64,000 bases of DNA from an uncultured virus (IMG/VR IMGVR_UViG_3300032893_002794). Lineage: Duplodnaviria > Heunggongvirae > Uroviricota > Caudoviricetes. The position numbers were made by a program, and so were the translations under genes. The stretch lies in the IMG/VR virus record IMGVR_UViG_3300032893_002794; one strand, written 5' to 3'. The notes under the pieces are model-generated. The model did not search any database. It was not told where the DNA came from and worked only from the letters and a program-made list of their open reading frames with translations. Positions 1-26,954 of the stretch are shown piece after piece (position 1 is the first letter of the stretch; each line of letters begins with the position of its first letter).

Positions 1-18
1 GTCGAGATGCGGGAGTTC

Positions 19-1587
19 GTCGCGAGGGCAGCGCAGGGGCCCGAACACTGCGAGGGGATCACGTCACCGGGATAGCTGGTCACAATGTCATTGTCGCGAG
101 GGCGGCGCGGGGGCCCGAACACTGCGAGCATGGGCCCAGACTAGGACAGAGATTTTCGATGCGAGGGTCGCGAGGGCTGCGCAGGGGCCTGAACACTGCG
201 AGGAGAAATGCGCTGGCCAAGTCAGCTGTGGAGCAAACGTTGCGAGGGCGGCGCGGCGGCCCGAACACTGCGAGTGGGTCCGTGTGAGCACACTTCAACG
301 TCCGCTCAGGTCGCGAGGGCTGCGCAGGGGCCTGAACACTGCGAACAAACGACGGTCGAAGGTTGCTTGGTCGCGAGGGCGGCGCGGGGGCCAGAGCACC
401 GCGAGGGGCGATGTCGTCGAGTCGCGAGGACCGGTTGTTGGTTCGAAGGTAACTTTGTTCAATCGTCGCGAGGGCGGCTCGGGGGCCAGAGCACCGCGAG
501 ACACTGAGTAGAGGAGATCAGTTCTTCTCTCAAAGAGTTGAGAGGGCGGCGCGAGGGAGGAACCATGGGAATTGATGTTTCGAGGGCAGCTCAGAGGCCC
601 GAACACTGCGAGTTGTAGTAGAGGATGTTGTTGCGAGGGCGGCGCGGGGGCCAGAACACCGCGAGGAGAAATGCGCTGGGCAAGTCAGCCGTGGAGCAAA
701 CGTCGCGAGGGCGGCGCGGCGGCCCGAACACCGCGAGGTGGCCATGTGTTTCCATTGAGTCTCTATGTGACGGGATTTGTATCAAGGAGTTGCGAGGGCG
801 GCGCGGCGGCCCGAATACCGTGAGGGAGGAACCATGGGAATTGATGTTGCGAGGGCGGCGCAGGAGCCCGAACACTGCGATCATCGAGATGATCAAGTTT
901 TTTTCGTTTTTTTTCGTCGATATCATGTCGCGAGGACAGCGCGGGGGCCCGAATACTGTGAGCTTGGGTCCTGACGAAGTTGCGAGGGCGGCGCGGGGGC
1001 CCGAACACCGTGAGGTACTCGGTTCGCGTCGGAGATTAGAAGTGATCGAGGTTGTGAGTATGGTGCGGGGGCCAGAACACCGTGAGCTGATCTCTTCCTA
1101 TTGATGCGAGGGTGTCGCGGGGGCCCGAACACCGCGAGTTGACCTCTTCCTGTTGATGCGAGGGCGTCGCGGGGGCCCGAACACTGCGAGAGAGCGCAGC
1201 TTCAGTACCTGAGGATATCGTGGACTAGTCGCGAGGGCGGCGCGGGGGCGCGAGATTCCGCACTGTCGCGAGGGCGGCGCAGGGGCCCGAACACTGCGAG
1301 GGCGACCTCGCTAGACACGAACGCGCTGTAAGAGTCGTCGCGAGGGCGGCGCAGGGGCCCGAACACTGCGAGTCTTCGGGAGGAGACGGTGATGTCCATC
1401 CCAGCCTTGTCGCGAGGGCGGCGCAGGGGCCCGAACACTGCGAGGGTCAGAATCCCCTCCCGGAACCCACCCAGTAGGAGCAGGTCGCGAGGGCGGCGCA
1501 GGGGCCCGAACACTGCGAGTACTTCATCGGGTTCTTGTCTGATCTCTCGAAGTAGTGAGGGCGGCGCGGCGGCCCGAATACCGCGAG
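19..1587 (+). CRISPR. CRISPR array 1 (atypical/degenerate; probably continues left of the window), 36-nt repeat GTCGCGAGGGCGGCGCAGGGGCCCGAACACTGCGAG
   Basis: 22 full-length repeat copies (starts 19,93,167,239,310,370,465,577,630,702,789,846,927,979,1051,1103,1155,1265,1337,1409,1484,1552) plus 3 internally deleted copies (421,537,1228); spacers 10-51 nt. Orientation inferred from a 3' stem CGCAG/CTGCG followed by 2 nt, as in Cas12m repeats. Confidence 0.95.
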
Positions 1588-1630
1588 ATCTGGAATCGGT
1601 GCTTGTGAGAGTCAGGTGTTAACTTGATTG

Positions 1631-1680
1631 TTGACATCTAATTCTGCAGGTGGTTAGATACATTTCCTCTGGACTGGAGG
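1631..1680 (+). promoter_or_regulatory. sigma70-like promoter and RBS of cas12m
   Basis: TTGACA at 1631-1636, 17-18 nt gap, TTAGAT/TAGATA at 1654-1660; GGAGG at 1676-1680, 7 nt before ATG 1688. Confidence 0.6.
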
Positions 1681-1687
1681 AAGGCTC

Positions 1688-3748
1688 ATGAAGCGGAAGA
1701 AGTCGAAGCTCCCATCTCGGGTATACAAGTATGCCCTGCGACCCCCGACGCTCAATGCCGAGCTCGTCGACGAGTCGCACTGTGAGTCGAGGCGATATTA
1801 CAACAAGCTCGTCACGATCGAGAATCGCCGGCGACACTTCTACCGTCTCTGCCGAGCCAAGTACTTCCCGGAGTATGCTCGCGCGGAGGAGGACGTCAGC
1901 GCGCTCGAGCTGAGGCTCGAGGAGGAGCGCACTTCCATCTTGAGCAAGAAGTCCGAGGGTAGGACGAGGCAGGTGAGTGACGCTGACCGGGGGAGCGTTG
2001 ATCAGATCCTGGCGGAGCTCAAGCTGGCGCGGAAGCGGGTCGTCGAGCTCGGGCTGCCGATACGGATAGTGGAGCACGAGCTGCGTGTGGTGAAGCTCGA
2101 AACCGAGCGAGCGGAGCTTGCTGGAGCAGGCGACGAGGACGGGGCTCGAGAAGTTGTCGAGAAGCTAGTGAAGCTGGTCAAGAAGCTCGCTAAGTTGCGC
2201 GAGAGGCTCGCGAAGATCTTGAACGAGACCGCGGTTGTCGAGCGGGTGCGCGAGGCTGTCGCGAGGATGCGCGAGGATGTGGAGGTCCACGACGAGGAGG
2301 CGCTCGAGGCCGTCAAGGCGCTGCGGTCTAGTCTCTACTGGGGCACTTACCTGCTTGTCGAGAAGGCGTTCGAGCAGGCCTCCGCGAAGTCGAAGTATGA
2401 CGTTGCGTACGATGATACGCCTTCGCATCTGCTCAAGAGCCGCATCGGTGTTCATTGGGTTGGAGGGACGTCTGTGGAGGAGGTGCTCTCGAACGATACG
2501 CTCATGCAGATAGTAGATCCGCCGGAATTCCGGCAGACGAAGAGTGGGATCTACAGGCCCAGGTACAAGAGGGACGAGCAGGGCAACATCATCTACTGCA
2601 TGCTGAGGTTCCGGGTTGGGTCGGTCGGCAAGAAGAAGGAGCCCCTCTGGGCGGAGCTTCCGCTCGCCTACGATCGGCCGCTGCCGGTTGACGGTCGCAT
2701 CAAGTTTGCCTATGTTACGAGGCGTCCGCTGCGGGAGCGCAATCCATGGCAGTACTACCTGTGCGTGTCGGTTGAGGCGGCGAGCTTCGAGCGCACGCTG
2801 CCCCACGTGACCCAGGAGGGGACGACAACGGTCAATTTTGGTTGGCGGCAGCTCGACAGCGGTAACATCAGGGTCGCGACGGTAAACCGTGACGGAGGGA
2901 AGGTGGAGTATGTCGAGATCCCGAAGTACTTCGTCGACGGCCACGTGAAGTGCAGGAAGCTGCAGGGTCTGCTCGACGAGAAGTTCGAGGCCGTCAAGAA
3001 GGAGATCGCCGGGTGGATCTCGTCGAGGGAGCGGCATTTGCCGGGGATGCTGCCGGAGCTGTTCGTCGAGAGCTTCGAGCACGTCACCATGTGGAAGTCG
3101 CAGCACAAGCTTTGCGAGCTCGTGCGCTACTGGGAGGAGCACAGGGTGGAGGGGGACGACGGCATCTGGTCGGTGGTCGACGAGTGGCGAGGGAGGTACT
3201 TGCACCTCCATGACTGGATGACTAACGCGAGGCGGAGACTGCTCGGCTGGCGCCGCGACTTCTATGCGAGGGTGGCCAAGGATCTGGTGATTACGTCGGC
3301 TCAGGTGGCGATAGATACTTTCAAGATCGCCGACGTGGCAGAGCGACCGGAGGCCGAAGCTGTCGAGGAGGGGGGCGAGAGGGCGAGGTGGAACCGGGTG
3401 GTCGCGGCGCCGAGCGAGCTCCGGAGGGCTATAGAGGTGGCGGCCAAGAAGTACCATTGCCTAGTGCTGGCTGCGCCCACTGTGGACGGCACCAGGAGGT
3501 GCAATGTCTGCGGGGAGATCTACGAGTGGGATCCTGCTCGGGAGTTCGTGCACGCGTGCCCTGGGAAAGATGGTTCTGGGTGCTCGGAGTGGGATCAGGA
3601 CGTCAACAACACCGACAACTTGGTCGATGCCGTTGCGAGCGGCGACGTGGTGCCGTTGGTTCGGCCGGCTGAGCACAGGGATGGCGAGGACTTGATCTCT
3701 AGTGAGCAGTTGCCCTATGGCATCGCTCGCAAGATGCTGGGCAAGTAG
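1688..3748 (+). CDS. cas12m: Type V-M (V-U1) CRISPR effector, Cas12m-like, non-canonical RuvC
   Basis: 686 aa between two arrays. Motifs collinear with Cas12m as I recall it: LYWGTY, LRFRVGS..PLWAELP..RPLP, VNFGWR (RuvC-I, N383), WKSQHKL, RRRLLGWRRDFYARVA, AIDTF (RuvC-II, D543), AAPSELRRAI, TRRCNVC..C..C zinc finger, WDQDVN (RuvC-III, D638). Confidence 0.85.
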   Translation: MKRKKSKLPSRVYKYALRPPTLNAELVDESHCESRRYYNKLVTIENRRRHFYRLCRAKYFPEYARAEEDVSALELRLEEERTSILSKKSEGRTRQVSDADRGSVDQILAELKLARKRVVELGLPIRIVEHELRVVKLETERAELAGAGDEDGAREVVEKLVKLVKKLAKLRERLAKILNETAVVERVREAVARMREDVEVHDEEALEAVKALRSSLYWGTYLLVEKAFEQASAKSKYDVAYDDTPSHLLKSRIGVHWVGGTSVEEVLSNDTLMQIVDPPEFRQTKSGIYRPRYKRDEQGNIIYCMLRFRVGSVGKKKEPLWAELPLAYDRPLPVDGRIKFAYVTRRPLRERNPWQYYLCVSVEAASFERTLPHVTQEGTTTVNFGWRQLDSGNIRVATVNRDGGKVEYVEIPKYFVDGHVKCRKLQGLLDEKFEAVKKEIAGWISSRERHLPGMLPELFVESFEHVTMWKSQHKLCELVRYWEEHRVEGDDGIWSVVDEWRGRYLHLHDWMTNARRRLLGWRRDFYARVAKDLVITSAQVAIDTFKIADVAERPEAEAVEEGGERARWNRVVAAPSELRRAIEVAAKKYHCLVLAAPTVDGTRRCNVCGEIYEWDPAREFVHACPGKDGSGCSEWDQDVNNTDNLVDAVASGDVVPLVRPAEHRDGEDLISSEQLPYGIARKMLGK

Positions 3749-3777
3749 CTGAAAACCTTATAGATTTTCGTGTAGCT

Positions 3778-5859
3778 GTCGCGAGGGCGGCGCAGGGGCC
3801 TGAACACTGCGAGCTCTCTATGGAACTCTCTGCTCTCGAAAGAAACGCCGGTCGCGAGGGCGGCGCAGGGGCCTGAACACTGCGAGGTCTTCTCGGGGCG
3901 GTCGATGATGGCGGCGGGAGTGCCGGTCGCGAGGGCGGCGCAGGGGCCTGAACACTGCGAGGTTCTTGTAGATCGGAATATCAATTTTTCCGAAACCGGT
4001 CGTGAGGGCGGCGCAGGGGCCTGAACACTGCGAGGTTCTTGTAGATCGGAATATCAATTTTTCCGAAACCGGTCGTGAGGGCGGCGCAGGGGCCTGAACA
4101 CTGCGAGGATTTCGCCGATCCGGAGCTCTTCACGAAATTCCTGGTCGTGAGGGCGGCGCAGGGGCCTGAACACTGCGAGCGTCCCCCACCGGCATCGGTT
4201 TCCAGAGACAGTCCACCTCGTCGTGAGGGCGGCGCAGGGGCCTGAACACTGCGAGGGCTAACCAGTCTGTCACCGTATCCGAGTCACGAGCCGGTCGTGA
4301 GGGCGGCGCAGGGGCCTGAACACTGCGAGGACGACCTTGTAGCACTCACGCCGGACGCAGACGGGAAGGTCGTGAGGGCGGCGCAGGGGCCTGAACACTG
4401 CGAGGTCGGGAGAGTGTTCTAGGAGCCTCTGAGCCTCTGACGAAGCACTAGTCGTGAGGGCGGCGCAGGGGCCTGAACACTGCGAGGGATCGTCCTTGGC
4501 GCGACTTGGGGAGAAGGCTCGAGTCGCGAGGGCGGCGCAGGGGCCTGAACACTGCGAGGTCTCACCCGAGGCCCTGAAGCTGGCTCGCAAGAAGGGGTCG
4601 CGAGGGCGGCGCAGGGGCCTGAACACTGCGAGAACGCAAAGGCCCTGCCTCCCGCAAACTCGAAGGAAAGTCGCGAGGGCGGCGCAGGGGCCTGAACACT
4701 GCGAGCCTTTCTCGCGCGTGCGGCCAGGCAGGCGACCAAGGGGTCGCGAGGGCGGCGCAGGGGCCCGAACACTGCGAGCGACTGTCCGACAGCGAAAATG
4801 GCGCTTTTTGTCGCGTCGCGAGGGCGGCGCAGGGGCCCGAACACTGCGAGGGCGACCTCGCTAGACACGAACGCGCTGTAAGAGTCGTCGCGAGGGCGGC
4901 GCAGGGGTCCGAACACTGCGAGTCTTCGGGAGGAGACGGTGATGTCCATCCCAGCCTTGTCGCGAGGGCGGCGCAGGGGCCTGAACACTGCGAGCCCCGC
5001 TTGAATTCCCCGGCCACGACGACCAAGAAGTCGCGAGGGCGGCGCAGGGGCCCGAACACTGCGAGAGAATCGCGCGGCTTGTGCAGGTGTCGATCGACGA
5101 GTCGCTAGGGCGGCGCAGGGGCCTGAACACTGTGAGGACAACGAAAGCTGATATTCGGCAGAGCTAAAGGACGTCGCGAGGGCAGCGCAGAGGCCTGAAT
5201 ACTGTGAGGAAAGGCGAGAAATTGAGCATCAGAGCAGTCGTCAAGTCGCGAGGGCGGCGCAGGGGCCTGAACACTGTGAGGAATGGTTGCCCGGGGTAGG
5301 ACAGCGGATCGGGAGAGTCGCGAGGGCGGCGCAGGGGCCCGAACACTGCGAGCGCATAGGGGCCGTGCAGAGGAGGCGGCCAAGATTTCGGTCGCGAGGG
5401 CGGCGCAGGGGCCCGAACACTGTGAGAGCAGAGTGCGAGAGAGGGCGACTAGGTCAAGCCAGGTCGCGAGGGCGGCGCAGGGGCCCGAACACTGCGAGTC
5501 GCGTGGCCCCTTCGAGCGCGGAGGAAGTATCACGTCGTGAGGGCGGTGCAGGGGCCCGAACACTGCGAGTTGATGCCCACCGTCTGTGGGTTGCTGACCT
5601 GGTCAGGTTGTGAGGGCGGCGCAGGGGCCCGAACACTGCGAGGAGACGCCAAGAAGAGGTTCGCGTACAGTACAGACCGTCGCGAGGGCGGCGCAGGGGC
5701 CCGAACACTGCGAGCACGGAAGTAGCCTTGCAACATCTGAAAATCATTGTGTGTCGCGAGGGCAGCGCAGGGGCCTGAACACTGCGAGCAGGCAACCAAT
5801 CGAGGACACAATGGCAGCAACACGTCGCGAGGGCGGCGCAGGGGCCCGAACACTGCGAG
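3778..5859 (+). CRISPR. CRISPR array 2 (canonical): 29 repeats, 28 spacers of 35-46 nt
   Basis: Same 36-nt repeat, first copy 29 nt after the cas12m stop; repeat starts run from 3778 to 5824; followed by a 15-nt spacer and a collapsed repeat GTCGTGAG (5875-5882). Confidence 0.98.
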
Positions 5860-6096
5860 GAGCGATGTCGTCGAGTCGTGAGGGAATTATCGATGCACGT
5901 CTGGGCATTGAATCATTCGGACGATCTCGTCTGCGTCTTCATAGTCGTAGTTTGGCGACAGTGAGATCACGAGGCGCAAGAACACCCACACCCAGGCTTC
6001 ACCGTTGAGTACGGCTGGGGCCAGTCGACCGCGGAATTGGGCTATGTTGTTTTTGTGCTTCACAGTTTCACAGTAAATTGACTGCGCAAGCGGGCA

Positions 6097-7107
6097 TTAT
6101 GGCTTCTTGGCCTTGTTTCTCATTGCCTTCCGGAGCCAGGATTTGTCAGCGTCTTCCCGGGCTATCACTTCCTTGAGGGCGCGCGAGTCGATCACCTCCT
6201 CGAAGGCCTCGCGTATCAGGCGACTCAAGACGTTGGGCGGCAGGGCGTCCACCTCCCACGAGGACTCGCCGTGCTTCCTCACGTAGTCGGATGCTCGGGG
6301 GTCGGTCATCTTGGCAGGGTTCGGTGGTGGGTCGTACTCCTCGACCTGCTCTGTGGTGAGAGCGATCTTCGAGACCTCGAGGTCGATGCTGTGGCGGCTG
6401 AACTCGAGGATCCGATCTCGGATGTCTCTGACCATGTCCTCTCCGGACGGGTCATGGTCCCCTAGGTAGAAGATGATCGCGGGCTTGGTCGTTGACCTGA
6501 AGTCTCTTATCTTAGACTCCAAGTACTGGTCTACTTGGTTGTCGGACCACTCGTGGGTGTCCATCTGTCTCTTTGTCTCGCGGACGATGGCAAAGTAGTC
6601 CTGGATGCTCCACCCGACGGCTGTCTGGATGCGCTCGGCGGACTCTCGCATGGCGCTCGCTGACGAGTAGCCCTTGTTCACCATGAGCGTCACGTGGAAC
6701 TCTCGAGCGAGCGGGGCTAGGACGCCAGCGAGGGCCTGCTTCTCAACCCACAGCTCGACGTACTTGGGCTGGTTGCTCCACCGCGGGAGCCGGTAGGCCC
6801 TGAGTGCCGACTCGACCAAGGAGGAGATGGAGGTCCACTCAGAGGGACGTTCAGGCACGCGGCCTCGGTCTTCGATCGCGTCCCAGTCGACGAGGCCGGC
6901 GTACCGCGCGTCGGTGAGGAGGGCGGTGAGCTGCTTGTACGCGGCCGGAGTGTTCGCGATGAGATCTCGAGCCACGAACTGGTAGTAGAGCTGGCGGGCC
7001 GTCAGTCGCAGTCCTTGGGACTGGTACTCCTCGACGATCTCCACTATCTTCGTGATCTTCGCCATTGATTCTGGTCGGAATTTGGTGCTTCGAATTTTAT
7101 CTATCAT
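6097..7107 (-). CDS. Topoisomerase VI-A/Spo11-like (JetD/Mini-A type) winged-helix + TOPRIM protein
   Basis: LTARQLYYQ (catalytic Tyr region), VELWVEKQAL (TOPRIM Glu), GYSS, FYLGDHDPSG (DxD), WEVDAL; AAAGGAGG RBS before ATG at 7107. Confidence 0.75.
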   Translation of the reverse strand: MIDKIRSTKFRPESMAKITKIVEIVEEYQSQGLRLTARQLYYQFVARDLIANTPAAYKQLTALLTDARYAGLVDWDAIEDRGRVPERPSEWTSISSLVESALRAYRLPRWSNQPKYVELWVEKQALAGVLAPLAREFHVTLMVNKGYSSASAMRESAERIQTAVGWSIQDYFAIVRETKRQMDTHEWSDNQVDQYLESKIRDFRSTTKPAIIFYLGDHDPSGEDMVRDIRDRILEFSRHSIDLEVSKIALTTEQVEEYDPPPNPAKMTDPRASDYVRKHGESSWEVDALPPNVLSRLIREAFEEVIDSRALKEVIAREDADKSWLRKAMRNKAKKP

Positions 7108-7170
7108 GACCTTGAAGCCTCCTTTAGTTATCATCTTATCACGATACAAGGACAGGTGATTAGTTTTTTA

Positions 7171-7201
7171 TTTTGACACTTGCTTCTTTATCGGCTATCT
7201 T
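7171..7201 (+). promoter_or_regulatory. sigma70-like promoter
   Basis: TTGACA(7173)-17 nt-TATCTT; 19 bp identical to 8091-8109. Confidence 0.65.
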
Positions 7202-7252
7202 GAAGGTCGGGTCTGACGAGCGACAAACCAGACAGAGGAAGGAGCGACTACG

Positions 7253-7777
7253 ATGAGCATCACCGACAGGGAGAGAGCGATCGGTCTAGTAGACGGAGTC
7301 AGGATAGGGGCGGTGGAGGAAGGATCTTCTTTCGAGTACCTGCTCGGCTTGCGGGACAGCGTGGACGCCTGGAGGGCCGAGCTCGATGCCGTGATATCGG
7401 CGAGGGTCCGGGAGACAGGACCGGTGGAGCTGCCGGGATGCGCGCTTTTTCTCGAGGAGTCGGTGGTGCATGACCAGGCGCCTGGGAGTCAGCACGACGC
7501 TGCAGAGGAGGTGCCCGGCCAGCCGTCGGGCGGAGGGCAAGATCTCGAGGGTCAGCGGGGATCTGCGGACACGAGGGAGGTGCCGGAGGTCGAGTGGCCT
7601 GGCGGCATGGTGCCGTCTCCCAACGGGGTCGGGTGGGTCAAGCGCGAGGGCACGCCTGGTCCGGTGTGTCTGGCAGCCGAGAGGGTGTGCCGAATGGCCG
7701 CGAGCCACTCGAGCCTCGTGGAGATAGGGCGGGCCTACCAGGCGATGATGCGCGGTCGGGCGGTCGGCGGTGCGTGA
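7253..7777 (+). CDS. hypothetical protein
   Basis: 174-aa ORF, AAGGAG RBS, downstream of a promoter. Confidence 0.6.
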   Translation: MSITDRERAIGLVDGVRIGAVEEGSSFEYLLGLRDSVDAWRAELDAVISARVRETGPVELPGCALFLEESVVHDQAPGSQHDAAEEVPGQPSGGGQDLEGQRGSADTREVPEVEWPGGMVPSPNGVGWVKREGTPGPVCLAAERVCRMAASHSSLVEIGRAYQAMMRGRAVGGA

Positions 7778-7787
7778 GGTGGCGGTG

Positions 7788-8048
7788 ATGACGAATACGG
7801 AGTGGGAGGCGCTCTACAAGACCGTGGTGGATGGGAAGATCCGCATAGTCGGCGGCCACCTCGTCGTGAGGCAAGACGCGGCCACGGTGCTTGCGCTCTA
7901 CGACAGTCCCGAGGTCACCCCCGTGCAGCGGCGCAACTTGAGGGAGCACACGTTCGACGAGGTCCTGGGGGTGGCCCGCCAGTGGCTCGGCGAGAGGGAG
8001 CTCTCGGTGGTAGTCGACCCTGAGGGGTTCAGTCTCGGAGGAGCCTAG
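7788..8048 (+). CDS. hypothetical protein
   Basis: GAGGT RBS, ATG 7788, follows the previous gene. Confidence 0.6.
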   Translation: MTNTEWEALYKTVVDGKIRIVGGHLVVRQDAATVLALYDSPEVTPVQRRNLREHTFDEVLGVARQWLGERELSVVVDPEGFSLGGA

Positions 8049-8090
8049 AGTCGCGAGATTTCTTAGATTTTTTCTCCAGCTACATTTTCT

Positions 8091-8121
8091 TTTTGACACT
8101 TGCTTCTTTCTGGTGGATAAT
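8091..8121 (+). promoter_or_regulatory. sigma70-like promoter
   Basis: TTGACA(8093)-17 nt-GATAAT. Confidence 0.65.
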
Positions 8122-8148
8122 CTTATCCAAGGAAGGAGATCAAAGAAC

Positions 8149-8394
8149 ATGATGACTGAGGCTCAGAAGAATGCGATGAGGCGGACGCAGCTCTTGCCGT
8201 TGCCCGACAAGATGAGCGAGTTCGAGCTCGGCTTCTACGCGTGGACCTGGCAGGTCGAGGCCGAGGTCGGCGCTGAGCTCGACGCCGCCTTCGGGACGGT
8301 CGTTGCTGGCAAGCTGCTCGCGGTCTCGGCGGACGGCGAGAACTTCGGCGAGGTGCTCGAGGGGCGGCGGGTGACCATGGTGGTGAGGGCCTGA
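8149..8394 (+). CDS. hypothetical protein
   Basis: AAGGAG RBS, ATG 8149. Confidence 0.6.
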   Translation: MMTEAQKNAMRRTQLLPLPDKMSEFELGFYAWTWQVEAEVGAELDAAFGTVVAGKLLAVSADGENFGEVLEGRRVTMVVRA

Positions 8395-8618
8395 TGTCTT
8401 TCATGACTAAGAGAATCGTCAGAGGTGCGGAGCCGGCGCGGGGAGAGCTCGAGGAGGTGGCCTTAGTTCTCGGCAGGGTCATCGAGGAGCAGCGCCTGAT
8501 GTCGGTCAGCAAGACGTGGGACGAGATGGCGGCGAAGATCGGAGAGGCGCAGCGGCACATCCTGCTTGAGCAGGCGCGCCAGATGATTGTCTTCTTCAAC
8601 TCGGTCGTGACCGGCTAG
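8394..8618 (+). CDS. hypothetical protein
   Basis: TGATG overlap with the upstream gene. Confidence 0.55.
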   Translation: MSFMTKRIVRGAEPARGELEEVALVLGRVIEEQRLMSVSKTWDEMAAKIGEAQRHILLEQARQMIVFFNSVVTG

Positions 8619-8742
8619 GGGAATACGTCGTGCTGAGCGATCTCTCGCCGATGTTCTTGGTGGCCTGGGTACTGACCCCCGTGACTCGCTGGCTGTACCG
8701 CTGCGTTCGTCGTCAGCAGGGAATAATCTAGGCTCGAGGCAC

Positions 8743-9762
8743 CTACTCGAGGTTTCCGATCCACACCACCTTCGGGGTCTCGCTCCGCATGGTCTCGTCT
8801 CTCAGCACCTCGGCGAAGCTCTGGTGCATGGGGTGGTCTCTGAGGTGTACGGCTCGAGCTCGGTACGAGGCGTCGTCGAACGTCCCCCAGTTGAGGAACT
8901 TCTGGAAGTGGATCTCGTCGGCGTGGAGGTCGGCGGCGAGCCTCACGAACGCCGGCATCTCGGCATAGTTGGCCGCCTGGACCACGAAGTTGAGCACCAC
9001 CCTGTCGACGAGCTCCTGCTCGCGCAGCGACTTGATGAAGTATAAGTTCGACCACGGCATCGCCAGGGGGCGGCTGCTCCCGTCCCGGCGGAGCTGGGCG
9101 TAGGTGGCGTCCGTGGCGGCGTCTAGCGACACCTGCAGCTCCCTGACGGTGGTCTGCCCGTCGGTCCAGCGGTTGGGTCCTACTAGGCGTTCCCACCTCT
9201 CCGGGTCGAGGAGGCGACCGTTCGTGCAGATCGCCAGTCTCAGGTTGGGGCACCTCGAGCGGTCGATGCTGTCCACGAGCGCCTGGTAGTGGCGGGAGGC
9301 CAGGGGCTCGCCGCCGCCGGCGAGGTACATGACGTCGACCAGCTCGAGCAGGGGCGACCTGGCCAGTCGAGCCGTGATCTCGGACATGGTGTAGGTCTCA
9401 TCTGGCGAGGGAGCGAACAGCTGTTGCCGGCAGGTGGGGCACGCCAGGTTGCAGGTGTGGTCGTAGGCGACGGCCAGCGCGTGGACGCGGAGATCTCGGG
9501 AGGGTGCGTACTCGCCTTGCACCTCGGTGATTGGTCCGGAGGGCGCCGGCAGGTAGGGGCACTGCCGGCAGCTCGAGAACGTCTTGTCGGCGACGTGGCG
9601 CCTCATCTCTGCTACCTTGTCGCCGCGCCACAGCTCCGAGGGGTCGGTGGTCAAGATGCTGCCCACGGGTCCGCAGGTCCACAGGGGGCAGCAGACGTAG
9701 ACGTCTCCACCTCGGTAGATCCCGAGGGTGTGGTCGGCCTGGGTGCAGTTGTAGTGGGTCAT
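8743..9762 (-). CDS. radical SAM protein with N-terminal SPASM/twitch-like Cys domain
   Basis: GDVYVCC..CRQCP then YDHTCNLACPTC, GGGEP, TNG, VSLDAA; ATGA overlap start at 9762. Confidence 0.85.
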   Translation of the reverse strand: MTHYNCTQADHTLGIYRGGDVYVCCPLWTCGPVGSILTTDPSELWRGDKVAEMRRHVADKTFSSCRQCPYLPAPSGPITEVQGEYAPSRDLRVHALAVAYDHTCNLACPTCRQQLFAPSPDETYTMSEITARLARSPLLELVDVMYLAGGGEPLASRHYQALVDSIDRSRCPNLRLAICTNGRLLDPERWERLVGPNRWTDGQTTVRELQVSLDAATDATYAQLRRDGSSRPLAMPWSNLYFIKSLREQELVDRVVLNFVVQAANYAEMPAFVRLAADLHADEIHFQKFLNWGTFDDASYRARAVHLRDHPMHQSFAEVLRDETMRSETPKVVWIGNLE

Positions 9763-10400
9763 CTCTTGTTCCACAGGCATGTGTACTTGCGCACCTCGTA
9801 CGATCCCGGCTCTAGGAGCTCGGCGATGGCCTGATCTTCTCCGGAGAATCCGATCTCGAAGTCGTGGATGCCGAGATGGCCTCCTACTTTTACTTTTGGC
9901 ATGTAGGCGAGGAGCTGTTCCCGAGTGTCTTCGTACGTGTGGATCGTGTCGATGAAGACGAAGTCGAGGCTCTCGTCCGCGTAGCACGAGGCCTGATCTT
10001 GGCCACGTCTGACTATCAGGTTGATGTAGTCAGAGAGCCCCGAGCGAGCAATGAAGCTCTCGGTGACGTTTCGCTGTCCTATCGGGGAGCTCAGTCGCAT
10101 CACCTCCTCGCGGGCGGCCTCCTCAGCTATTGGAGGGCACCACGAGCTCGGGGAGTGCACTGACGGAGAGTAGAACTCGACGATCTTGTGGTGGGGGATG
10201 AAGAGCGGGTCGACGGCGTCGAAGTATATGTGTTTTTTTGATCGGTGGATCTCCGAGGCCATGTAGACGGCTGACCTGCCGAACATGACCCCCACCTCGA
10301 CGAACCTTGCTCCACTAGCGGGAGCTCTCTCGACTGCCTCAGTGTAGACGTCCTCGAAGTCGAACCAGCCCGGGATGTCTCTCCACGTGATCTTGTCCAT
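9759..10400 (-). CDS. class I SAM-dependent methyltransferase (Methyltransf_24-like)
   Basis: FVEVGVMFGRS, FDAVD, LDFVFIDTIHTYE, GGHLGIHD. Confidence 0.85.
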   Translation of the reverse strand: MDKITWRDIPGWFDFEDVYTEAVERAPASGARFVEVGVMFGRSAVYMASEIHRSKKHIYFDAVDPLFIPHHKIVEFYSPSVHSPSSWCPPIAEEAAREEVMRLSSPIGQRNVTESFIARSGLSDYINLIVRRGQDQASCYADESLDFVFIDTIHTYEDTREQLLAYMPKVKVGGHLGIHDFEIGFSGEDQAIAELLEPGSYEVRKYTCLWNKR

Positions 10401-10409
10401 CTGACTCTC

Positions 10410-11441
10410 CTATGATATTTCTTTGAGTGTGGCGCTCTCGCGTCGGACGCTGTGGCTTATACCGCAGAGGGCGTAGCACTTGTTCATCTCTCTCCTCACG
10501 TCGTCAGCTCCCAGCCAGAATGACCTGAGGTCGCCTCTCCGCTCGAGCTTCTCGCCGCGGAAGCGGTCTGAGAAGCACAGTCGGGCGGTGCCGCGGAGGT
10601 CCACCATGACGTTGCGCTCGCCGCTGTTGCAGACGTGCTCACTCGTGGCGATCTTGTAGTACCAGTCCACGGCGTTCTCGAAGCTGCCCCTCATGAGCGA
10701 GTCGCAGTAGCTCTCCACCTGCTCTATCCAGACCGGGGAGAGGCGGAGGGAGTACTTCTGGTCGCACTCCCTGAGCTGCCTAGCGAGGTCTGCGCCGTCG
10801 ACGGAGTGGTGCTTGACGAAGAAGTGGTCGAACGTGCCCAGGCCGAAAGACGGCTGGAGCATGTTGATCTTGAGCTTGTCGGCGCCTACGTCTCGCAGCA
10901 CCAGGTGGTAGAGGGAGTCTAGATCTCGGCTGCTGTCGTCGTAGATGAGGGCCATGGCGAAGATGCGCCGGAAGGCGAGGGACCGGTCGCTCGACCTGGC
11001 AGACACCAGCAGCCGGAGGGCTCGCACGGCGGCCTGGAAGGCGCCCCTCGTCCCGCGGGAGGAGTCGTGCACGCTCTCGAGGTGGCTGTCGAGGGAGACA
11101 GTGATCTCGTCCGGGCCCTCGGACAGCACGTGGCGAGCCTCATCCATATTGTTGATGGTCGTGCCGTTGGTAACGGACAGAGAGCGAAGTCCGAGGGCTC
11201 GGCAGGCGGCGCACGCGCGGAAGTACGAGTCTCTCGCGAGCATGGGCTCACCGCCGCAGATGACGACCGACCCTCTCGGGGATAGATCGGCGAACTCGTC
11301 GATCACGTCGCACACGCGGTCGATCGACATTTTGGACTCTGGCGGCGGCTCTTTGGTCGTCCAGTAGTAGCAGTGCTGGCACCTGAGGTTGCACTCCGTG
11401 TTGATCGTGGTGAACAAGAATTTCGGCGGCGGCCTCGTCAT
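10410..11441 (-). CDS. radical SAM protein (C-terminal Cys cluster)
   Basis: CNLRCQHC, GGEP, TNG, VSLDS, HDSSRG; ATGA overlap start at 11441. Confidence 0.85.
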   Translation of the reverse strand: MTRPPPKFLFTTINTECNLRCQHCYYWTTKEPPPESKMSIDRVCDVIDEFADLSPRGSVVICGGEPMLARDSYFRACAACRALGLRSLSVTNGTTINNMDEARHVLSEGPDEITVSLDSHLESVHDSSRGTRGAFQAAVRALRLLVSARSSDRSLAFRRIFAMALIYDDSSRDLDSLYHLVLRDVGADKLKINMLQPSFGLGTFDHFFVKHHSVDGADLARQLRECDQKYSLRLSPVWIEQVESYCDSLMRGSFENAVDWYYKIATSEHVCNSGERNVMVDLRGTARLCFSDRFRGEKLERRGDLRSFWLGADDVRREMNKCYALCGISHSVRRESATLKEIS

Positions 11442-13174
11442 GGGAGCGGCTTCCGGTAGACGAACGAGCTCCACGGGGGCGGCACCTCGAAGGAGTCGCC
11501 CAGCACATCGCGCACGGCCAGCATGTGGCCCTCGTAGGGGGGGTAGAAGTCGTGCCCGGCTATCACACCGCCGGGTCGTAGCTTCGGGAGGTAGAGTCGC
11601 AGTATGGAGGCGGTGTCCTCGTAGGTGTGCGCGGTGTCGAAGAACACGAAGTCGAGGCTGCCGTCCTCGTAGTGCGAGGCCCGCTCCTGGCCGATCGACT
11701 TGACGAGGTTGACGTGAGATGTGAGCTCGGCCAGCTCCAAGAAGCGCTTCACGATCTGTTCGTGATCTTTGAGCTCTCGCACGGCTCGCCTCATGGCGAG
11801 CACGCCTGGCTTGGGAGCGGACCAGAGCCTCGTCGATGGCTCGAGCAGCTCGTACTGGTACTCGAGGTCGGAGGGATATGACAGGGCGAACTTGTCGACG
11901 GCGTCGAAGGCGATCTTCTTGCCGCTCTTGGCGATGGCTCTGGCCATGTAGGCCGTCGACCTGCCGTAGAGCACTCCTATCTCGACGAATCGGGCACCGT
12001 CGCTTGCCATATTGACGGCGTCGTCGTAGATCTGCTCGAAGTCGAAGTAGCCGGGCAGGTCCTGCCACGTGACGAGCGGGCGCTCTGTCTCGACGAGCTC
12101 GACTCTGGGAGTAGGTTCAGCGTCGAGGGGAGGTGTCACAGCGTCGGTCGGCTGGAAGCCAACCCAGAGGACGCGGTCCGGGTGCTCGGACTCGACCTGC
12201 GCCATGTTCTTCGCGAGCACGTCGCGCAGAGGGTGGGAGGGCAGGTGGACGGCCCGCTCGGCGTACTTGGTCCCGAGCCTCCAGGTTCCGTCTATGAGGC
12301 TACCGGTGTCCTCGTAGGTGCCTAGGTTGGCGAGCTCCACGAACTTGACGAGGTCAGCTTCGTAGTGTTGCGCGAGATCCATGAAGGCTGGTATCTCGCG
12401 CACGTTGTTGGCCTGCACGACGAAGCTGAGTCGCAGGGAATCGAGTCGGCCTCTCGTCCTCAGTCCCCGCAGGAAGCGCAGGTTCTCGCAGAGCATGTCC
12501 CAGTTGCCCCGGCGGTTCTCGCGGTACGTCTCGGGACAGGAGGCGTCGATGGACACCTCCACGGAGTCCACGTGGCGTGCGCCGTTGCCGATCTTGGTCC
12601 AGTTGTCGGGGGTGGCGAGGAGCCCGTTCGTGTAGAGGGATATCCGCAGTCCAGGGTAGCTCGAGGGAGTCAGGCCCCTGAGGAAGTCGAAGTATACGTC
12701 GGACGCGAATGGGTCGCCGCTGCCGGTGATGTGGAGGCGCCTCGTCGTCTCCAGCACCCTGCTCGACAGGACGCGCGAGTGTATGAGGTCTAGCCGCCTC
12801 TTGGTGAGGCCGCCGACACCGAAGTGGAATCTCTCCTTCCTGCAGGAGGGGCAGGCTAGGTTGCACCTCCGGTCGTACGACCAGTGGAGGTCAGTGACCG
12901 TGGTCGACGCGGGTGTCTCGCGTGGGTCGAGTGGTGGTTGAGGCACGACGATGCCGCCGTGCTTCGGCAGGAATGGGCACCTCCTGCAGTGGCGGTAGCT
13001 GCCGTCTCTGGCGCTCTCCCGCACGGACTCGGCCGCCTCGCTGTGGAGCACGGTGGGCAGGTCGTCGTCGATGAGGTTGCCGATCGGCACCGGCAGCCAG
13101 GTGGGGCAGCACAGCCACACGTCGCCGTTGAAGTCCACCTCGAGTCGCGAGAATGGTATCGTGCAGGCTCCCAT
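11438..13174 (-). CDS. SPASM-like + radical SAM + C-terminal methyltransferase fusion
   Basis: GDVWLCC, CNLACPSC, GSGDP; C-terminal FVEIGVLYGRS..DTAHTYE..GHDF paralogous to 9759-10400. Confidence 0.85.
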   Translation of the reverse strand: MGACTIPFSRLEVDFNGDVWLCCPTWLPVPIGNLIDDDLPTVLHSEAAESVRESARDGSYRHCRRCPFLPKHGGIVVPQPPLDPRETPASTTVTDLHWSYDRRCNLACPSCRKERFHFGVGGLTKRRLDLIHSRVLSSRVLETTRRLHITGSGDPFASDVYFDFLRGLTPSSYPGLRISLYTNGLLATPDNWTKIGNGARHVDSVEVSIDASCPETYRENRRGNWDMLCENLRFLRGLRTRGRLDSLRLSFVVQANNVREIPAFMDLAQHYEADLVKFVELANLGTYEDTGSLIDGTWRLGTKYAERAVHLPSHPLRDVLAKNMAQVESEHPDRVLWVGFQPTDAVTPPLDAEPTPRVELVETERPLVTWQDLPGYFDFEQIYDDAVNMASDGARFVEIGVLYGRSTAYMARAIAKSGKKIAFDAVDKFALSYPSDLEYQYELLEPSTRLWSAPKPGVLAMRRAVRELKDHEQIVKRFLELAELTSHVNLVKSIGQERASHYEDGSLDFVFFDTAHTYEDTASILRLYLPKLRPGGVIAGHDFYPPYEGHMLAVRDVLGDSFEVPPPWSSFVYRKPLP

Positions 13175-13182
13175 CTTTCCTC

Positions 13183-14202
13183 CTACGGTCGGTTGAAGCC
13201 CATCCAGTAGATCTTGACCTTCTCGTGGGGTTCGCGCTGTCTTATCTCCTCGAGCACAGACAGGAGCTCGGGGTGGCGCGGGTGCGACGCGAGCTGGACG
13301 GCCTTGCTGGAGTAGTCGGCCTCGTATTCTTGGTTCTTGAGATAGTTAAACCAGTCGCGTATCTCCATGAACGCCACGCAGTCGACGCCGTGGCTGGTCA
13401 TGAGGTCGAGAAACGCCGGCATCTCGTGGAAGTTGTTCTCCTGCACGACGAACATGGCGTGGAGCTCGAAGGGTCGCTGGCGGGATCGCTTCTCGCTGTT
13501 GATGAAGTCTAAGTTCGCGAGCAGGCGATTCCAGTCGCCTCCTCGGTTCTTCGCGTAGGTCTCCGCGCAGGCGGCGTCCACGGAGATCTGGATCTCGTGC
13601 AGGTTGAGGTGGTCGAGCGACAGGGAGCCCCACAGCTCGGGAGTGCAGAGCAGCCCGTTCGTGCAGAGTCCGACCCTGAGTCCGGAAAATCGCTCTGCTG
13701 ACAGTTGTCGCAGCAGCTCTCGCCCGTAGTGCGAGGCCAGGGGGTCGCCGCTGCCTGACAGGTGGAGTATGTTCACGCGCTCGAGCACGCCGCTCGCCAG
13801 CAGTTTCGACTGTATCGCGGCGACGGACCGGTGGTCGGCTTCTGAGAGTGAGAGGTGGCCCTTCCGGCAGGACGGGCACGCTAGGTTGCACGTCTTGTCG
13901 TAGGAGAGGTACAGGTGGTCGATCACGTCGGTGTCGGGCGCCGGCCCCCAGGGAACGACCGTCCCCTGCGGTCCGGGCAGGAAGGGGCAGCTCGTGCAGT
14001 GCCGGTAGCTGCCGTCCCTGACGCTCATCCTGATCTCCTGGGCTATCTTGCCGTGCCACAGGTCGAGCAGGTCATTGTCCATTATGTTTCCGATTTCGAG
14101 CGGCAGCCATGCCGGGCAGCACAGCCATACGGCTCCCTGGTAGCCGACCTCGAGTCGTATGAACGGGTTCCTGCAGTAGGTGTCTGGGTGGTTAAAATTC
14201 AT
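13183..14202 (-). CDS. radical SAM protein with N-terminal SPASM/twitch-like domain
   Basis: GAVWLCC, YDKTCNLACPSC, GSGDP, ISVDAA. Confidence 0.85.
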   Translation of the reverse strand: MNFNHPDTYCRNPFIRLEVGYQGAVWLCCPAWLPLEIGNIMDNDLLDLWHGKIAQEIRMSVRDGSYRHCTSCPFLPGPQGTVVPWGPAPDTDVIDHLYLSYDKTCNLACPSCRKGHLSLSEADHRSVAAIQSKLLASGVLERVNILHLSGSGDPLASHYGRELLRQLSAERFSGLRVGLCTNGLLCTPELWGSLSLDHLNLHEIQISVDAACAETYAKNRGGDWNRLLANLDFINSEKRSRQRPFELHAMFVVQENNFHEMPAFLDLMTSHGVDCVAFMEIRDWFNYLKNQEYEADYSSKAVQLASHPRHPELLSVLEEIRQREPHEKVKIYWMGFNRP

Positions 14203-14779
14203 AGTGGAATGTCTCCGCGTCTTTACTGAAGTGGTTCAAGAAGAGTCTCATAGTCTCGGCGTCGTAGTACGCGTGGTAGTCCGGTCTCTCCACCCTGCGG
14301 GCGTTGCACTTGGCCAGTGTGGAGCGCGGCTTCTTGATGAGGTCGCATACGCGGTCCCAGTCCTCCTGGATGCGCTCGAACTGCATGAGGAAGTCCACGG
14401 CCGGGGGGGAGTCGGGGCCCTCGCACAGTGTGTCTCGCTGGAGCCTCGTGAGGTGGGAGTAGGCGTGCTGCTCTCCCTCGGGGCGGGATCTGTCGAATTG
14501 AGGCAGATTGCGCAGCAGATCTCTGAAGGTCATGTCCTTGTCGATCCAGCCCATGTACTGGCAGTGGTGCCAGGCGGACACGAGTCGGTCCCACGGGTTC
14601 CTAACTATCGAGAAGCGGAAGTAGTCCCTGTAGCTGGTGAGGTACTCTGGGGTCTGGGTGCCGGAGCACATGTGGAGGGCGTCTCTGTCCAGCCATTCTA
14701 GTCCGAAGGCGCTCAAGATCGACGTGCTCGCCACCTTCAGCTGCTGGACGAAGATGCACTTGTGCTCGTGGGATATCAT
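14192..14779 (-). CDS. sulfotransferase family 2 protein
   Basis: MISHEHKCIFV..KVASTSI (5'-PSB-like), FSIVRNPWDRLVSAW (3'-PB), FERIQEDW, Y..YYD. Confidence 0.85.
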   Translation of the reverse strand: MISHEHKCIFVQQLKVASTSILSAFGLEWLDRDALHMCSGTQTPEYLTSYRDYFRFSIVRNPWDRLVSAWHHCQYMGWIDKDMTFRDLLRNLPQFDRSRPEGEQHAYSHLTRLQRDTLCEGPDSPPAVDFLMQFERIQEDWDRVCDLIKKPRSTLAKCNARRVERPDYHAYYDAETMRLFLNHFSKDAETFHYEF

Positions 14780-15552
14780 GTTATCTCATTGCACTTCCAG
14801 TAGCGCTCTGCTACTTCTCTGCATGACCACTCGGTCATGCGGTCGTCCATCGTCCACGGTCGCTCGACGATGATCTTCTTGCTCATGTCGATGAGGTCCG
14901 CTCTCGGATCTCGGCGGCTCGTCATGGCATCCCCTATCGACAGGTTCTCGTAGCGCTTCTTGTCCGAGTGTGAGATGTGCTCCAGGGCGACGACGTCGAC
15001 CTCTCTCCACACGAGCCCGTTGACCGACATGCGGAAGTAGAGATCGTCGTCCTCTCGGCCGTAGTGGACAAGTCTCTCGTTGTAGCCGTTGATCGCTAGT
15101 ACGTCTTTAGGGTCTACGAGCAGCGTGCCGCTCAGGTTGCGCTTGTCGCTGACGAGGGGAGGTACCGTGCGCCAGTTGCCGGCGTAGAAGTCGTCTCCCC
15201 GCAGGGGGTGTAGCCTCAGGAAGTCGGGCCGCACGAGCACGTCGTTGTCGAGGCGGAGCAGTATGACGTCATTGCATTGGAGTCCGAGAAGTCCACCTCC
15301 TGAGGCTATGCGCACCTCCAGGTTGTGGCACTTGGAGTTCTGCCAGTGCGACTGTCCCTCCGCGCGGTAGATGCGCACGCGAGGGTCGTCCAAGAAGTCC
15401 ACGGCATCTCGGATGGGGATCTTTGAGCCCCAGTCGACTATGATGACCATGTCTACTTCCTTGAGAGCCAGCCAGGTGGACAAGGCTCGGCACAGGGGCC
15501 ATAGCCGGTCGCGCGATCCTGTTGTAACGATGACTCTGCGGTCTCCTGTCAA
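14776..15552 (-). CDS. glycosyltransferase (GT2/GT7 galactosyltransferase-like)
   Basis: IIVDWGS, LRLDNDV, INGYNERLVHYGREDDDLYFR; TTGA overlap start with GAGGAG RBS. Confidence 0.8.
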   Translation of the reverse strand: MTGDRRVIVTTGSRDRLWPLCRALSTWLALKEVDMVIIVDWGSKIPIRDAVDFLDDPRVRIYRAEGQSHWQNSKCHNLEVRIASGGGLLGLQCNDVILLRLDNDVLVRPDFLRLHPLRGDDFYAGNWRTVPPLVSDKRNLSGTLLVDPKDVLAINGYNERLVHYGREDDDLYFRMSVNGLVWREVDVVALEHISHSDKKRYENLSIGDAMTSRRDPRADLIDMSKKIIVERPWTMDDRMTEWSCREVAERYWKCNEIT

Positions 15553-16556: not shown

Positions 16557-16563
16557 CTCTAGC

Positions 16564-17091
16564 TCACGGTTTTGGGTGCTTCCGCCAGGGGGCTCGGAGG
16601 ACGCGGAGGTAGTCCGAGGGGTGGGAGTCGAGCCAGGCCACCCGGTTGACCACGCAACGGAAAAATTCGACCAGCTCGGTTTTAGGGCTCTTCGCGGGCT
16701 CGTTCGCGCACACGAACGATCGCGGGTTGAAGCGGTCGCCGATGTTTCTTGACCCTCGGTAGATCGGTATGCTCAGGTCCATCATGGCCTCTACTACTCG
16801 AGGGGAGGCCAATGTCGAGGGGTCTTCGCAGGTGACGGTGAGCTTGTACGGTGACAGTGGTATAGTAGGATCTTCGATGGGGTGGACTACGTCGACTGGT
16901 GCGTATTTTGACAGCATCTCGACGAGGAGTATCGACTCGGGGGTGTCGAGGGGGTGGCGGACGCAGCAGCACCTCGTCTTCCAGCTGATAATCTCCTCGA
17001 GCACTTTGTCGGGGGGCTTGTCCATGGTTCTCATGGGGCACGACGGAGTCGCGCTGTGGATGAGATTGGTGTGGAGGGTGCTGGAGGTCAT
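16564..17091 (-). CDS. degenerate GT10 (alpha-1,3-fucosyltransferase)-like C-terminal domain protein
   Basis: YKLTVTCE..EAM..SIPIYRGS..FNPRSFV resembles GT10 YKF.LAFEN..IPIYWG..FNP.SFI but lacks the Y.TEK motif. Confidence 0.5.
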   Translation of the reverse strand: MTSSTLHTNLIHSATPSCPMRTMDKPPDKVLEEIISWKTRCCCVRHPLDTPESILLVEMLSKYAPVDVVHPIEDPTIPLSPYKLTVTCEDPSTLASPRVVEAMMDLSIPIYRGSRNIGDRFNPRSFVCANEPAKSPKTELVEFFRCVVNRVAWLDSHPSDYLRVLRAPWRKHPKP

Positions 17092-18095: not shown

Positions 18096-18138
18096 TTTAA
18101 GGCATCTTTCGGAGATTCGATCTTGTCGTCATGAATCC

Positions 18139-18435: not shown

Positions 18436-18438
18436 GGA

Positions 18439-19928: not shown

Positions 19929-20098
19929 GTTTTTATGGTTTCTTGTCGCGCCTGTTTGGGACTATTGGGACTTGAGTAGGATGAGGCAGGTGCCAGCTGA
20001 TGTTGGCGCTGCTGTTGGGTTCAATGGGTGCGCAGAGGTCGTAGCAGGTCTTCTCGCTCGTCACGGCTACCTCGTGTTTTTCGGGTGAAATGTCCATG

Positions 20099-22704: not shown

Positions 22705-22747
22705 TTTTTCTCCAGTTCTTGTTTGCAGAGTCGATTCTGGTCAGTTT

Positions 22748-24189: not shown

Positions 24190-24198
24190 ATAGATCTC

Positions 24199-26201: not shown

Positions 26202-26954
26202 CTAACGGCTGTATCCGGAGATTGGGGCTCGGTCAGAAGCGTTACCCAATCCCATGGCATAGATAGGGCCGCTCCAAACCAGCCTGGCTTTTTTGAGTGC
26301 AGCTTTTGCGTTTTTTGCTGTGATATCAGCAAGAAATGCGCCCTGTGGATTGGAAATTCGATACGTATTCTTGTAGGTCTTAGCTGGCATTTGTCTTACC
26401 TTTCTTTTCTCATCGAATTGGTGGAGTGTGTGAACCGGATAAGCAGGGAAGTTGGTCTTCACCATGTACGCGTGGGCCTCGTCGACGGTGAGGTCGGAGA
26501 GGAGCACGAGGCCAGCCAGGGCGCCAGTGCGGTCGTTGCCGTTCTTGCAGTGGAAGGCCACCACGACGTCGAGGTGATCGCGGATGAACTGAGCGGCTTT
26601 GGCCAGTGACCGCCACTGCTCCGCATCGGGACCCGCGAGCTCGTCGACGTAGTCGTCGAGTGTGTGAGGCCTTGTCGACGGTGGTATCGGTAGGTACGCG
26701 ACTTCGATGCCATATTTGGGGGCCCACCTGTCGGCGTCTCCCTCGTCCCAGCTGTCGAGCTTGTAGATCTTCTTGACGTGCAGGACTTCAGCGAGGTACC
26801 GCACCGAGGCCTCGTCGGGGGGCTGTCCCATGCGGTAGGCGTTAGGGTGCTCCCTCACCTGCAGGAGGTGCGGGATCCCGTGCGTGAGCACCGGGGCGCG
26901 GGCGCACGAGCAGGTGAGACAGCAGAGCGCTGCTGCCAGCCGCTTGTCGAGCAT
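26202..26954 (-). CDS. tyrosine/dual-specificity phosphatase with signal peptide; the last 62 aa (MPAKTY...) may be a separate in-frame gene
   Basis: HCKNGNDRTG P-loop (HCxxGxxR); YRMGQP; N-terminal hydrophobic+Cys segment. Confidence 0.8.
   Translation of the reverse strand: MLDKRLAAALCCLTCSCARAPVLTHGIPHLLQVREHPNAYRMGQPPDEASVRYLAEVLHVKKIYKLDSWDEGDADRWAPKYGIEVAYLPIPPSTRPHTLDDYVDELAGPDAEQWRSLAKAAQFIRDHLDVVVAFHCKNGNDRTGALAGLVLLSDLTVDEAHAYMVKTNFPAYPVHTLHQFDEKRKVRQMPAKTYKNTYRISNPQGAFLADITAKNAKAALKKARLVWSGPIYAMGLGNASDRAPISGYSR

What the first reader, a model, noticed from the sequence alone, without database searches (positions are those of the whole stretch)
556..845. Duplicated 21-nt spacer is a Shine-Dalgarno plus start codon (GGAGGAACCATGGGAATTGAT)
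Seen: identical at 556-576 and 825-845 although the flanking repeats differ. Two more spacers also hold SD+start in sense orientation: GGAGGAGACGGTGATG (1373-1408, repeated at 4923-4958) and GAGGACACAATG (5789-5823). Inference A: guides are selected to park the effector at gene starts; a sense-orientation crRNA pairs with the template strand, the orientation reported effective for dCas12a repression. Inference B: the array transcript is itself translated, giving a 17-aa peptide (565-618, MGIDVSRAAQRPEHCEL) and a 46-aa peptide (834-974), or acts as an SD-bearing CreT-like RNA.
Basis: partly seen in the sequence, partly recalled or inferred. Interest (0 to 1): 0.7.

Follow-up and report, generated by a model that had tools for sequence, protein, structure and literature searches.

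The report
Phage guide aimed at host gene
A large wetland phage carries a non-cutting CRISPR protein and a shortened guide that matches the start of a gene in the bacteria this phage group infects, so the phage probably uses CRISPR to turn down a host gene.

Summary
The duplicated 21-nt spacer is real (556-576 = 825-845). It lies in a degenerate array beside a phage-borne Cas12m (N-D-D RuvC). It reads SD+ATG because it matches the start of a conserved 102-aa gene (MGIDV...) in one myxobacterial family. Six of 8 hits of a 596-Gb scan are this gene; in 10 family genomes the first 17 nt are identical (5' flank TTG in 7, TCG in 3; 21/21 in G041). That match alone could be chance (about 0.1-0.2). 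The separate link: a type I-E spacer of G041 matches this phage at 30/32 with an AAC flank, in a motif shared with related Cas12m phages. Best reading: a host-derived minimal guide that lets Cas12m block transcription of that gene; no expression or repression was shown. A general rule that guides are selected for gene starts is weak: 3/47 strict (P 0.003-0.02), no excess with loose patterns, 1/128 in related arrays, and the other two SD spacers have no target found. The peptides are probably by-products; CreT features are missing. The scan's index showed no earlier report of this on other DNA.

The parts
825..845 (+). 21-nt spacer, likely the working guide; matches SD + first four codons of a conserved 102-aa myxobacterial gene
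789..824 (+). variant repeat (crRNA scaffold) before the guide; 6 changes from consensus, both predicted stems kept (G-C replaces A-U at 17-31, one G-U)
556..576 (+). identical second copy of the spacer
537..555 (+). truncated repeat (19 nt; 17 internal nt lost) before the 556 copy; predicted unable to form the scaffold
   Evidence: sequence; function inferred
1..1587 (+). array 1: degenerate repeats, spacers of 15-24 nt mixed with full-length ones; continues upstream of position 1
1688..3748 (+). cas12m, 686 aa, RuvC N383-D543-D638
3749..3777 (+). presumed leader of array 2
   Evidence: spacer 3814-3850 absent in L001; inferred
3778..5859 (+). array 2: 29 repeats, 35-46-nt spacers; two spacers shared with array 1
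1373..1408 (+). SD+ATG spacer, repeated at 4923-4958; no target found
5789..5823 (+). SD+ATG spacer at the far end of array 2; no target found
565..618 (+). 17-codon ORF, read-through from spacer into repeat; likely by-product
834..974 (+). 46-codon ORF across two repeats; likely by-product
26419..26450 (-). site matched 30/32 (5' flank AAC) by a type I-E spacer of G041; a motif shared with related phages, upstream of gene starts

Best explanation
The spacer was captured from the host chromosome, at the start of a conserved 102-aa gene of a myxobacterial family, and later shortened to 21 nt. Processed with repeat 789-824, it gives a guide just over the 17 bp that Cas12m needs. The non-cutting phage Cas12m binds behind a TTG PAM about 24-33 nt downstream of a -10-like hexamer, pairs with the template strand over the SD and start codon, and blocks early transcription without breaking the host DNA. 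Shown: the sequence match, the flank, the Cas12m type and a CRISPR link between this family and this phage group. Inferred: expression, processing, PAM use, repression and benefit to the phage. Odds: host origin of the spacer about 0.85; working repression about 0.6.
For: TTN + first 18 nt in 596 Gb of genomes: 8 hits, 6 of them orthologues of one gene, each 20/21 (47, 49). 9 of 89 family genomes match with up to 2 mismatches, reversed control 0. In 10 genomes the first 17 nt are identical; flank TTG 7, TCG 3. G041 matches 24/24 over 824-847; the site is the best hit of the whole array 1 in 8 of 10 genomes. All 10 continue GT..., as the next repeat does, which fits shortening at a short shared sequence (post hoc). 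TTN PAM seen separately: contigs of run X3 end in TTC before spacers 4180 and 4559. Host link: 1 of 132 G041 spacers matches the window at 2 mismatches, next best 8; uniform expectation 4e-9; its AAC flank ends in the same base as the repeat. Cas12m with N-D-D binds but does not cut dsDNA and GoCas12m silences in promoter or coding region (PMC11013384, passages); 17-bp heteroduplex (PMC10442227, passages). GC 64% phage, 67% family loci.
Against: A TTN+20 match somewhere in the collection has a chance of about 0.1-0.2 (2 unrelated TTN+18 hits; my estimate), and MGID starts are common in this protein family (1030 clusters, 98, 101). The G041 spacer also matches phage G004 at 30/32 and G002 at 26/32 (137), so it links the phage group, not this phage alone; G041 was one of five genomes that I picked, partly for its 21/21 match. 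G041 has TCG, not TTN. The PAM rests on two loose ends. Of 8 other spacer patterns tested in the family only one gave a conserved site (15/16, 7 genomes, 61, 65), which could be chance. The 556 copy has a broken scaffold yet is unchanged, which selection on guide function does not explain. The function of the target is unknown.
Confidence: 0.6

Rival explanations
1. Tolerated self-spacer: captured from the host gene start by accident, harmless because Cas12m does not cut, then shortened and duplicated by recombination between repeats, with no benefit and perhaps no expression.
For: Array 1 is full of duplications, truncated repeats and odd-length spacers; short spacers occur in 6 of 13 related loci, often among decayed repeats; gene starts are conserved, so this may be only the one host spacer still recognisable; other duplicated spacers differ by only 0-3 nt, so identity of two copies is weak evidence of selection.
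Against: Variant repeats keep their stems with a compensatory pair in 9 of 22 array-1 repeats and 0 of 29 array-2 repeats; the guide keeps 20-21 of 21 identity although it lies among old repeats; shortened spacers stop at 15-24 nt, near the length Cas12m uses.
Confidence: 0.22
2. The host match is chance; the spacer came from the start of another gene (phage, plasmid or other bacterium) not in the collections.
For: SD+ATG strings are over-represented; 2 unrelated genomes match TTN+18; 28 viral contigs match TTN+14.
Against: The family singled out by the match also carries a spacer against this phage group; no viral contig matches beyond 18 of 21.
Confidence: 0.12
3. The unit works as RNA: the SD and ATG start translation of repeat-derived peptides or tie up ribosomes (CreT-like), gated by Cas12m binding the repeat upstream.
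For: The SD is predicted mostly unpaired (0.6-0.8); both copies keep SD+ATG, also the one with a broken repeat; related phage G002 has two SD-ATG units in its decayed array; in L014 and L023 a repeat lies just before the cas12m ribosome site.
Against: MGIDV equals the host protein's start; the two ORFs differ in length and sequence; no tandem rare codons after the start (CreT features in PMC8501985, passages); no peptide conservation in G002.
Confidence: 0.06

Closest known systems
Type V-M CRISPR-Cas12m (MmCas12m, GoCas12m; PMC11013384, PMC10442227)
   Same: Compact effector, non-canonical RuvC (N-D-D), 36-nt two-stem repeat, TTN-type flank, silencing by binding.
   Different: Phage-borne, two arrays, guides cut down to 15-24 nt, and a guide pointing at a host chromosomal gene instead of a mobile element.
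Prophage TldR repressing host fliC (10.1101/2023.11.30.569447, passages)
   Same: Phage-encoded, nuclease-dead, RNA-guided repressor of a host gene.
   Different: TldR is TnpB-derived with one fixed guide at the -10 element and a replacement gene; here a CRISPR array holds many guides, the site covers SD and start codon, and no phage copy of the target was looked for beyond the window.
Host-targeting arrays of huge phages, 'dCas14' (PMC7162821, passages)
   Same: Phage spacers matching host genes, with an effector lacking a catalytic residue; repression proposed.
   Different: Different effector; that screen needed matches over 24 bp, so a 21-nt guide would be missed.
MvCas12m of myxophage MV-1 (10.64898/2026.09.14.751636, passages)
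   Same: Cas12m with array in a phage of myxobacteria, no adaptation genes beside it.
   Different: D-E-D triad, eight spacers, no targets found.
CreTA / regulatory mini-arrays (PMC8501985; 10.1101/2023.03.03.530964, passages)
   Same: Degenerate repeats used for regulation.
   Different: Those target promoters in their own locus by partial pairing; no self-target with a TTN flank was found here.

Membership tests
Type V-M Cas12m | Sequence homology to Cas12m over WED, RuvC and zinc finger | tested here: met
   best PDB hits are all Cas12m, E 4.6e-45 to 1.8e-11
Type V-M Cas12m | RuvC triad of a Cas12m kind (D-E-D, H-D-D or N-D-D) | tested here: met
   N383 and D638 invariant, D543 nearly invariant in 25 homologues; N-D-D described in PMC11013384
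Type V-M Cas12m | Adjacent array of 36-nt repeats with two stems | tested here: met
   pairing assigned by analogy with Cas12m2 (20)
Type V-M Cas12m | 5' PAM-dependent target recognition | tested here: inconclusive
   TTC before two putative protospacers; TTG 7 and TCG 3 at the host site (142)
Type V-M Cas12m | Binds but does not cut dsDNA; processes pre-crRNA | not testable with these tools
   needs biochemistry
CreT RNA toxin | Strong SD and start codon | tested here: met
   sequence
CreT RNA toxin | Mini-ORF with two consecutive rare codons and a downstream stem-loop | tested here: not met
   codons after ATG are GGA ATT GAT GTT; ORFs of 17 and 46 codons; features from PMC8501985
CreT RNA toxin | Own promoter repressed by a CreA guide | tested here: inconclusive
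   no promoter found by consensus scan in array 1 (11); the array start lies outside the window
Autoregulatory mini-array (CreR, cr-like RNA) | Partial target with PAM in the cas promoter or locus | tested here: not met
   best window matches 13 of 16 with a GTA flank; the phage genome beyond the window is not held
TldR-type phage repressor | TnpB-derived protein with a single long guide RNA, no CRISPR array | tested here: not met
   CRISPR arrays present; works like TldR, not a member

The most novel reading that the evidence does not exclude
A group of large myxobacterial phages keeps decayed Cas12m arrays of minimal 15-25-nt guides as a standing host-control cassette, natural phage CRISPRi aimed at host gene starts; this guide silences a small acidic protein of YfbM/DMP12-like fold that hinders infection.
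Probability: 0.3. Interest if true: 0.82.

Novelty: new variant of a known kind. Interest (0 to 1): 0.66.

Why it matters
It would give a concrete, testable case of a phage using a naturally non-cutting CRISPR effector against a host chromosomal gene, an idea so far proposed from spacer matches (PMC7162821) and shown for TldR. It points to a host family for an uncultured phage group, flags an unstudied 102-aa protein family as worth a phage's silencing, and shows that screens needing over 24-bp spacer matches can miss such guides. Literature searches listed no paper reporting a phage Cas12m guide with a host target; the library lacks most subscription journals.

Tried and rejected
Self-target in the window: best 13 of 16, no TTN. 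G001 as host: the 21-mer occurs only in the array at up to 3 mismatches; its genes look archaeal to me (68, my reading), so the contig is probably mis-binned. Viral contigs: no exact 21-mer; 28 TTN+14 hits, none over 18 of 21; none for spacers 1373, 5789 or the L018 short spacer; the L024 short spacer found only itself. GenBank phages and plasmids: chance-level hits only. Other spacers in the 89 family genomes, sites against reversed control: 963, 13 vs 1, in different genes; 203/666, 3 vs 3; 613, 17 vs 17; 406/5860, 32 vs 5, loci not examined; 1373, 0; 5789, 0; 346, 3 vs 6. Cas12m of this clade in the family: 0 of 89; 3 of 401 genomes of the phylum hold Cas12m-like genes of another clade, so no host evidence. 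Phage DNA against family genomes: window 6000-25900 in 89 genomes with only 3 candidates scored each and in 5 genomes, 44000-63900 in 5, 24000-43900 in 5; only the G041 spacer stood out; the repeated G040 hit was a low-complexity linker. Taxon labels of phage-protein homologues: none given. Self-targets of spacers in G002-G004: none convincing for short spacers. No RNA holder listed; no run covered the 556 copy well. Target protein: no Pfam, NCBIfam or PHROGs family, no Foldseek match at E 0.001. No tRNA or Rfam hit in the window.

Full report
Setting. The window looks like part of a large phage: 64% GC, genes mostly on the minus strand, few family hits, and one protein whose nearest Atlas clusters are 95-100% viral. 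It shares many proteins with the 194-kb viral record G002 (139). Three wetland metagenome runs hold the locus (29). A 686-aa gene at 1688-3748 is a Cas12m: its best solved relatives are all Cas12m, and the RuvC triad is N383-D543-D638 (24), a type reported to bind but not cut dsDNA (PMC11013384, passages). It lies between array 1 (1-1587, variant repeats, several 15-24-nt spacers) and array 2 (3778-5859).

Observation. The 21-mer is identical at 556-576 and 825-845, and both ORFs are as stated. The first copy follows a repeat missing 17 internal nt; the second follows a repeat that keeps both predicted stems. The + strand is the guide strand: a near-identical contig in G001 lacks the spacer next to the presumed leader (a deletion or assembly variant is possible), and the repeat fits the Cas12m2 scaffold (PMC10442227, passages, 20). 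SD+ATG frequency depends on the pattern: 3 of 47 unique spacers with a strict pattern (P 0.002-0.023), no excess with two looser ones, and 1 of 128 spacers from 13 related loci against 0.74 expected.

PAM. Two contigs of run X3 match spacers 4180-4219 and 4559 onward and both have TTC just 5' of the match (the second is read from the loose-end table only). I used TTN as the working PAM.

Target. TTN plus the first 18 nt was scanned in 596 Gb of genomes: 8 hits. Six are the start of the same 102-aa gene, MGIDVRVE..., at 20 of 21; five of the six records are titled Myxococcales or delta proteobacterium and one Proteobacteria; two other hits are unrelated. All lie in one family of 89 genomes, 9 of which match at up to 2 mismatches, reversed control 0 (56). 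In 10 genomes the first 17 nt are identical, 7 with TTG and 3 with TCG; a -35/-10-like pair lies upstream in all 10, the -10 ending 24-33 nt before the site (pattern drawn from these sequences; the consensus scan found none in L137). G041 matches 24 of 24 including the next GT. The spacer has the sense sequence, so the guide would pair with the template strand. On its own this match has roughly a 0.1-0.2 chance of arising somewhere in the collection (my estimate from 47).

Host link. Searching phage DNA against five family genomes gave a 31-nt hit in G041 (129), which is a spacer of a type I-E-like array with cas genes beside it (type named from recall of repeat and gene pattern). Of 132 spacers it alone matches the window, at 2 mismatches (next best 8), behind AAC (uniform expectation 4e-9). 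The site is a motif before gene starts with 2 copies in the window, 8 in G002, 2 in G004 and none in G003; the spacer also matches G004 at 30 of 32. So the family is infected by this phage group; that this phage infects G041 itself is not shown. Because the family was chosen from the 21-mer and then passed this separate test, chance becomes unlikely; I put host origin at about 0.85.

Results against a wider rule. Eight other spacer patterns were tested in the 89 genomes. Only 1139-1154 gave a conserved site: 15 of 16 behind TTC inside one gene in 7 genomes of the same subgroup (it looks like skp/OmpH, recalled), which could be chance. The two other SD spacers have no target in the family or in viral contigs.

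Target protein. No Pfam or curated family; homologues labelled Polyangia; 1030 clusters at 50% identity. The model (pLDDT 84) resembles YfbM (Z 8.0, rmsd 3.1, 97 aligned), the DNA mimic DMP12 (Z 7.1, 3.3, 89) and a CdiI immunity protein (Z 6.5, 2.9, 85); these scores are middling and give no function. DMP12 binding HU is from a search listing only (PMC3643605, 109). In G006, G007, G009 and G040 the gene faces a sigma-70-family gene (fliA-flgM by recall).

Mechanism. Most likely (0.6): the guide, just longer than the 17-bp duplex of Cas12m2, parks the non-cutting effector on the early transcribed region and lowers expression. GoCas12m silences from promoter or coding sites; for a helicase-dead type IV-A3 complex, template-strand guides repressed and coding-strand guides did not (10.1101/2023.06.23.546257, passages). 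Rivals: a tolerated self-spacer without benefit (0.22), chance (0.12), a translated or CreT-like RNA (0.06). The unchanged copy behind a broken repeat is unexplained by the guide model; a recent duplication or deletion would account for it.

Comparison. It is a member of type V-M by sequence, triad and repeat; activity is untested. It works like prophage TldR (10.1101/2023.11.30.569447, passages) and the 'dCas14' case of huge phages (PMC7162821, passages). A myxophage Cas12m was described without targets (10.64898/2026.09.14.751636, passages, 45, 86; its supplements were not seen and may list phages of this group). It fails the CreT codon test (PMC8501985, passages, 119) and shows no self-target as regulatory mini-arrays do (10.1101/2023.03.03.530964, passages, 36). 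Also read in passages, without bearing: PMC12607003, 10.64898/2026.10.26.761838 (107). Searches listed no report of a phage Cas12m guide with a host target.

Verdict. Observation confirmed; inference A holds for this spacer, not as a rule; inference B unsupported. New variant of a known kind, interest 0.66.

Noticed in passing
window 1264 to 5824, run X2: One contig joins 1264 directly to 5824 through a repeat, which would delete cas12m and array 2; may be a misassembly.
   Followed up: no
window 26177-26205 (+) and 26419-26450 (-); G002, G004: Conserved promoter-like motif before gene starts: 2 copies in the window, 8 in G002, 2 in G004, 0 in G003; possibly a phage-specific promoter.
   Followed up: partly
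L014 1108-1160; L023 3174-3230: A repeat-like unit sits about 20 nt before the cas12m start codon, so the ribosome site itself is the 'spacer': possible feedback control of cas12m translation.
   Followed up: no
L024 9891-10080: Decayed second array of G002 has two SD-ATG units just before repeats; no target found in its own record or viral contigs.
   Followed up: partly
L018 5900-5920: A 21-nt end spacer reads like the start of a cas12m gene (MKRTK), perhaps aimed at a rival phage's effector; no exact viral match.
   Followed up: partly
window 613-629: 17-nt spacer matches 17 of 17 at four places in G078 and one in G027, near the end of what looks like a transposase gene, but with a GTG flank.
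   Followed up: partly
G003, 30 nt after the third upstream repeat (L033 about 5441-5470): 15 of 15 and 14 of 15 matches to two other places in the same phage; possible self-regulation or a repeated leader.
   Followed up: no
window 8743-18095: Cluster of at least five SPASM/radical SAM genes with methyltransferases, a sulfotransferase and a glycosyltransferase.
   Followed up: no
window 1301-1408 and 4851-4958: Two consecutive spacers are shared, unchanged, by both arrays; 406-420 also resembles 5860-5874, suggesting the arrays arose from one another.
   Followed up: partly
L001 / G001:C78: The phage contig is binned in a genome whose genes look archaeal; probably mis-binned.
   Followed up: partly
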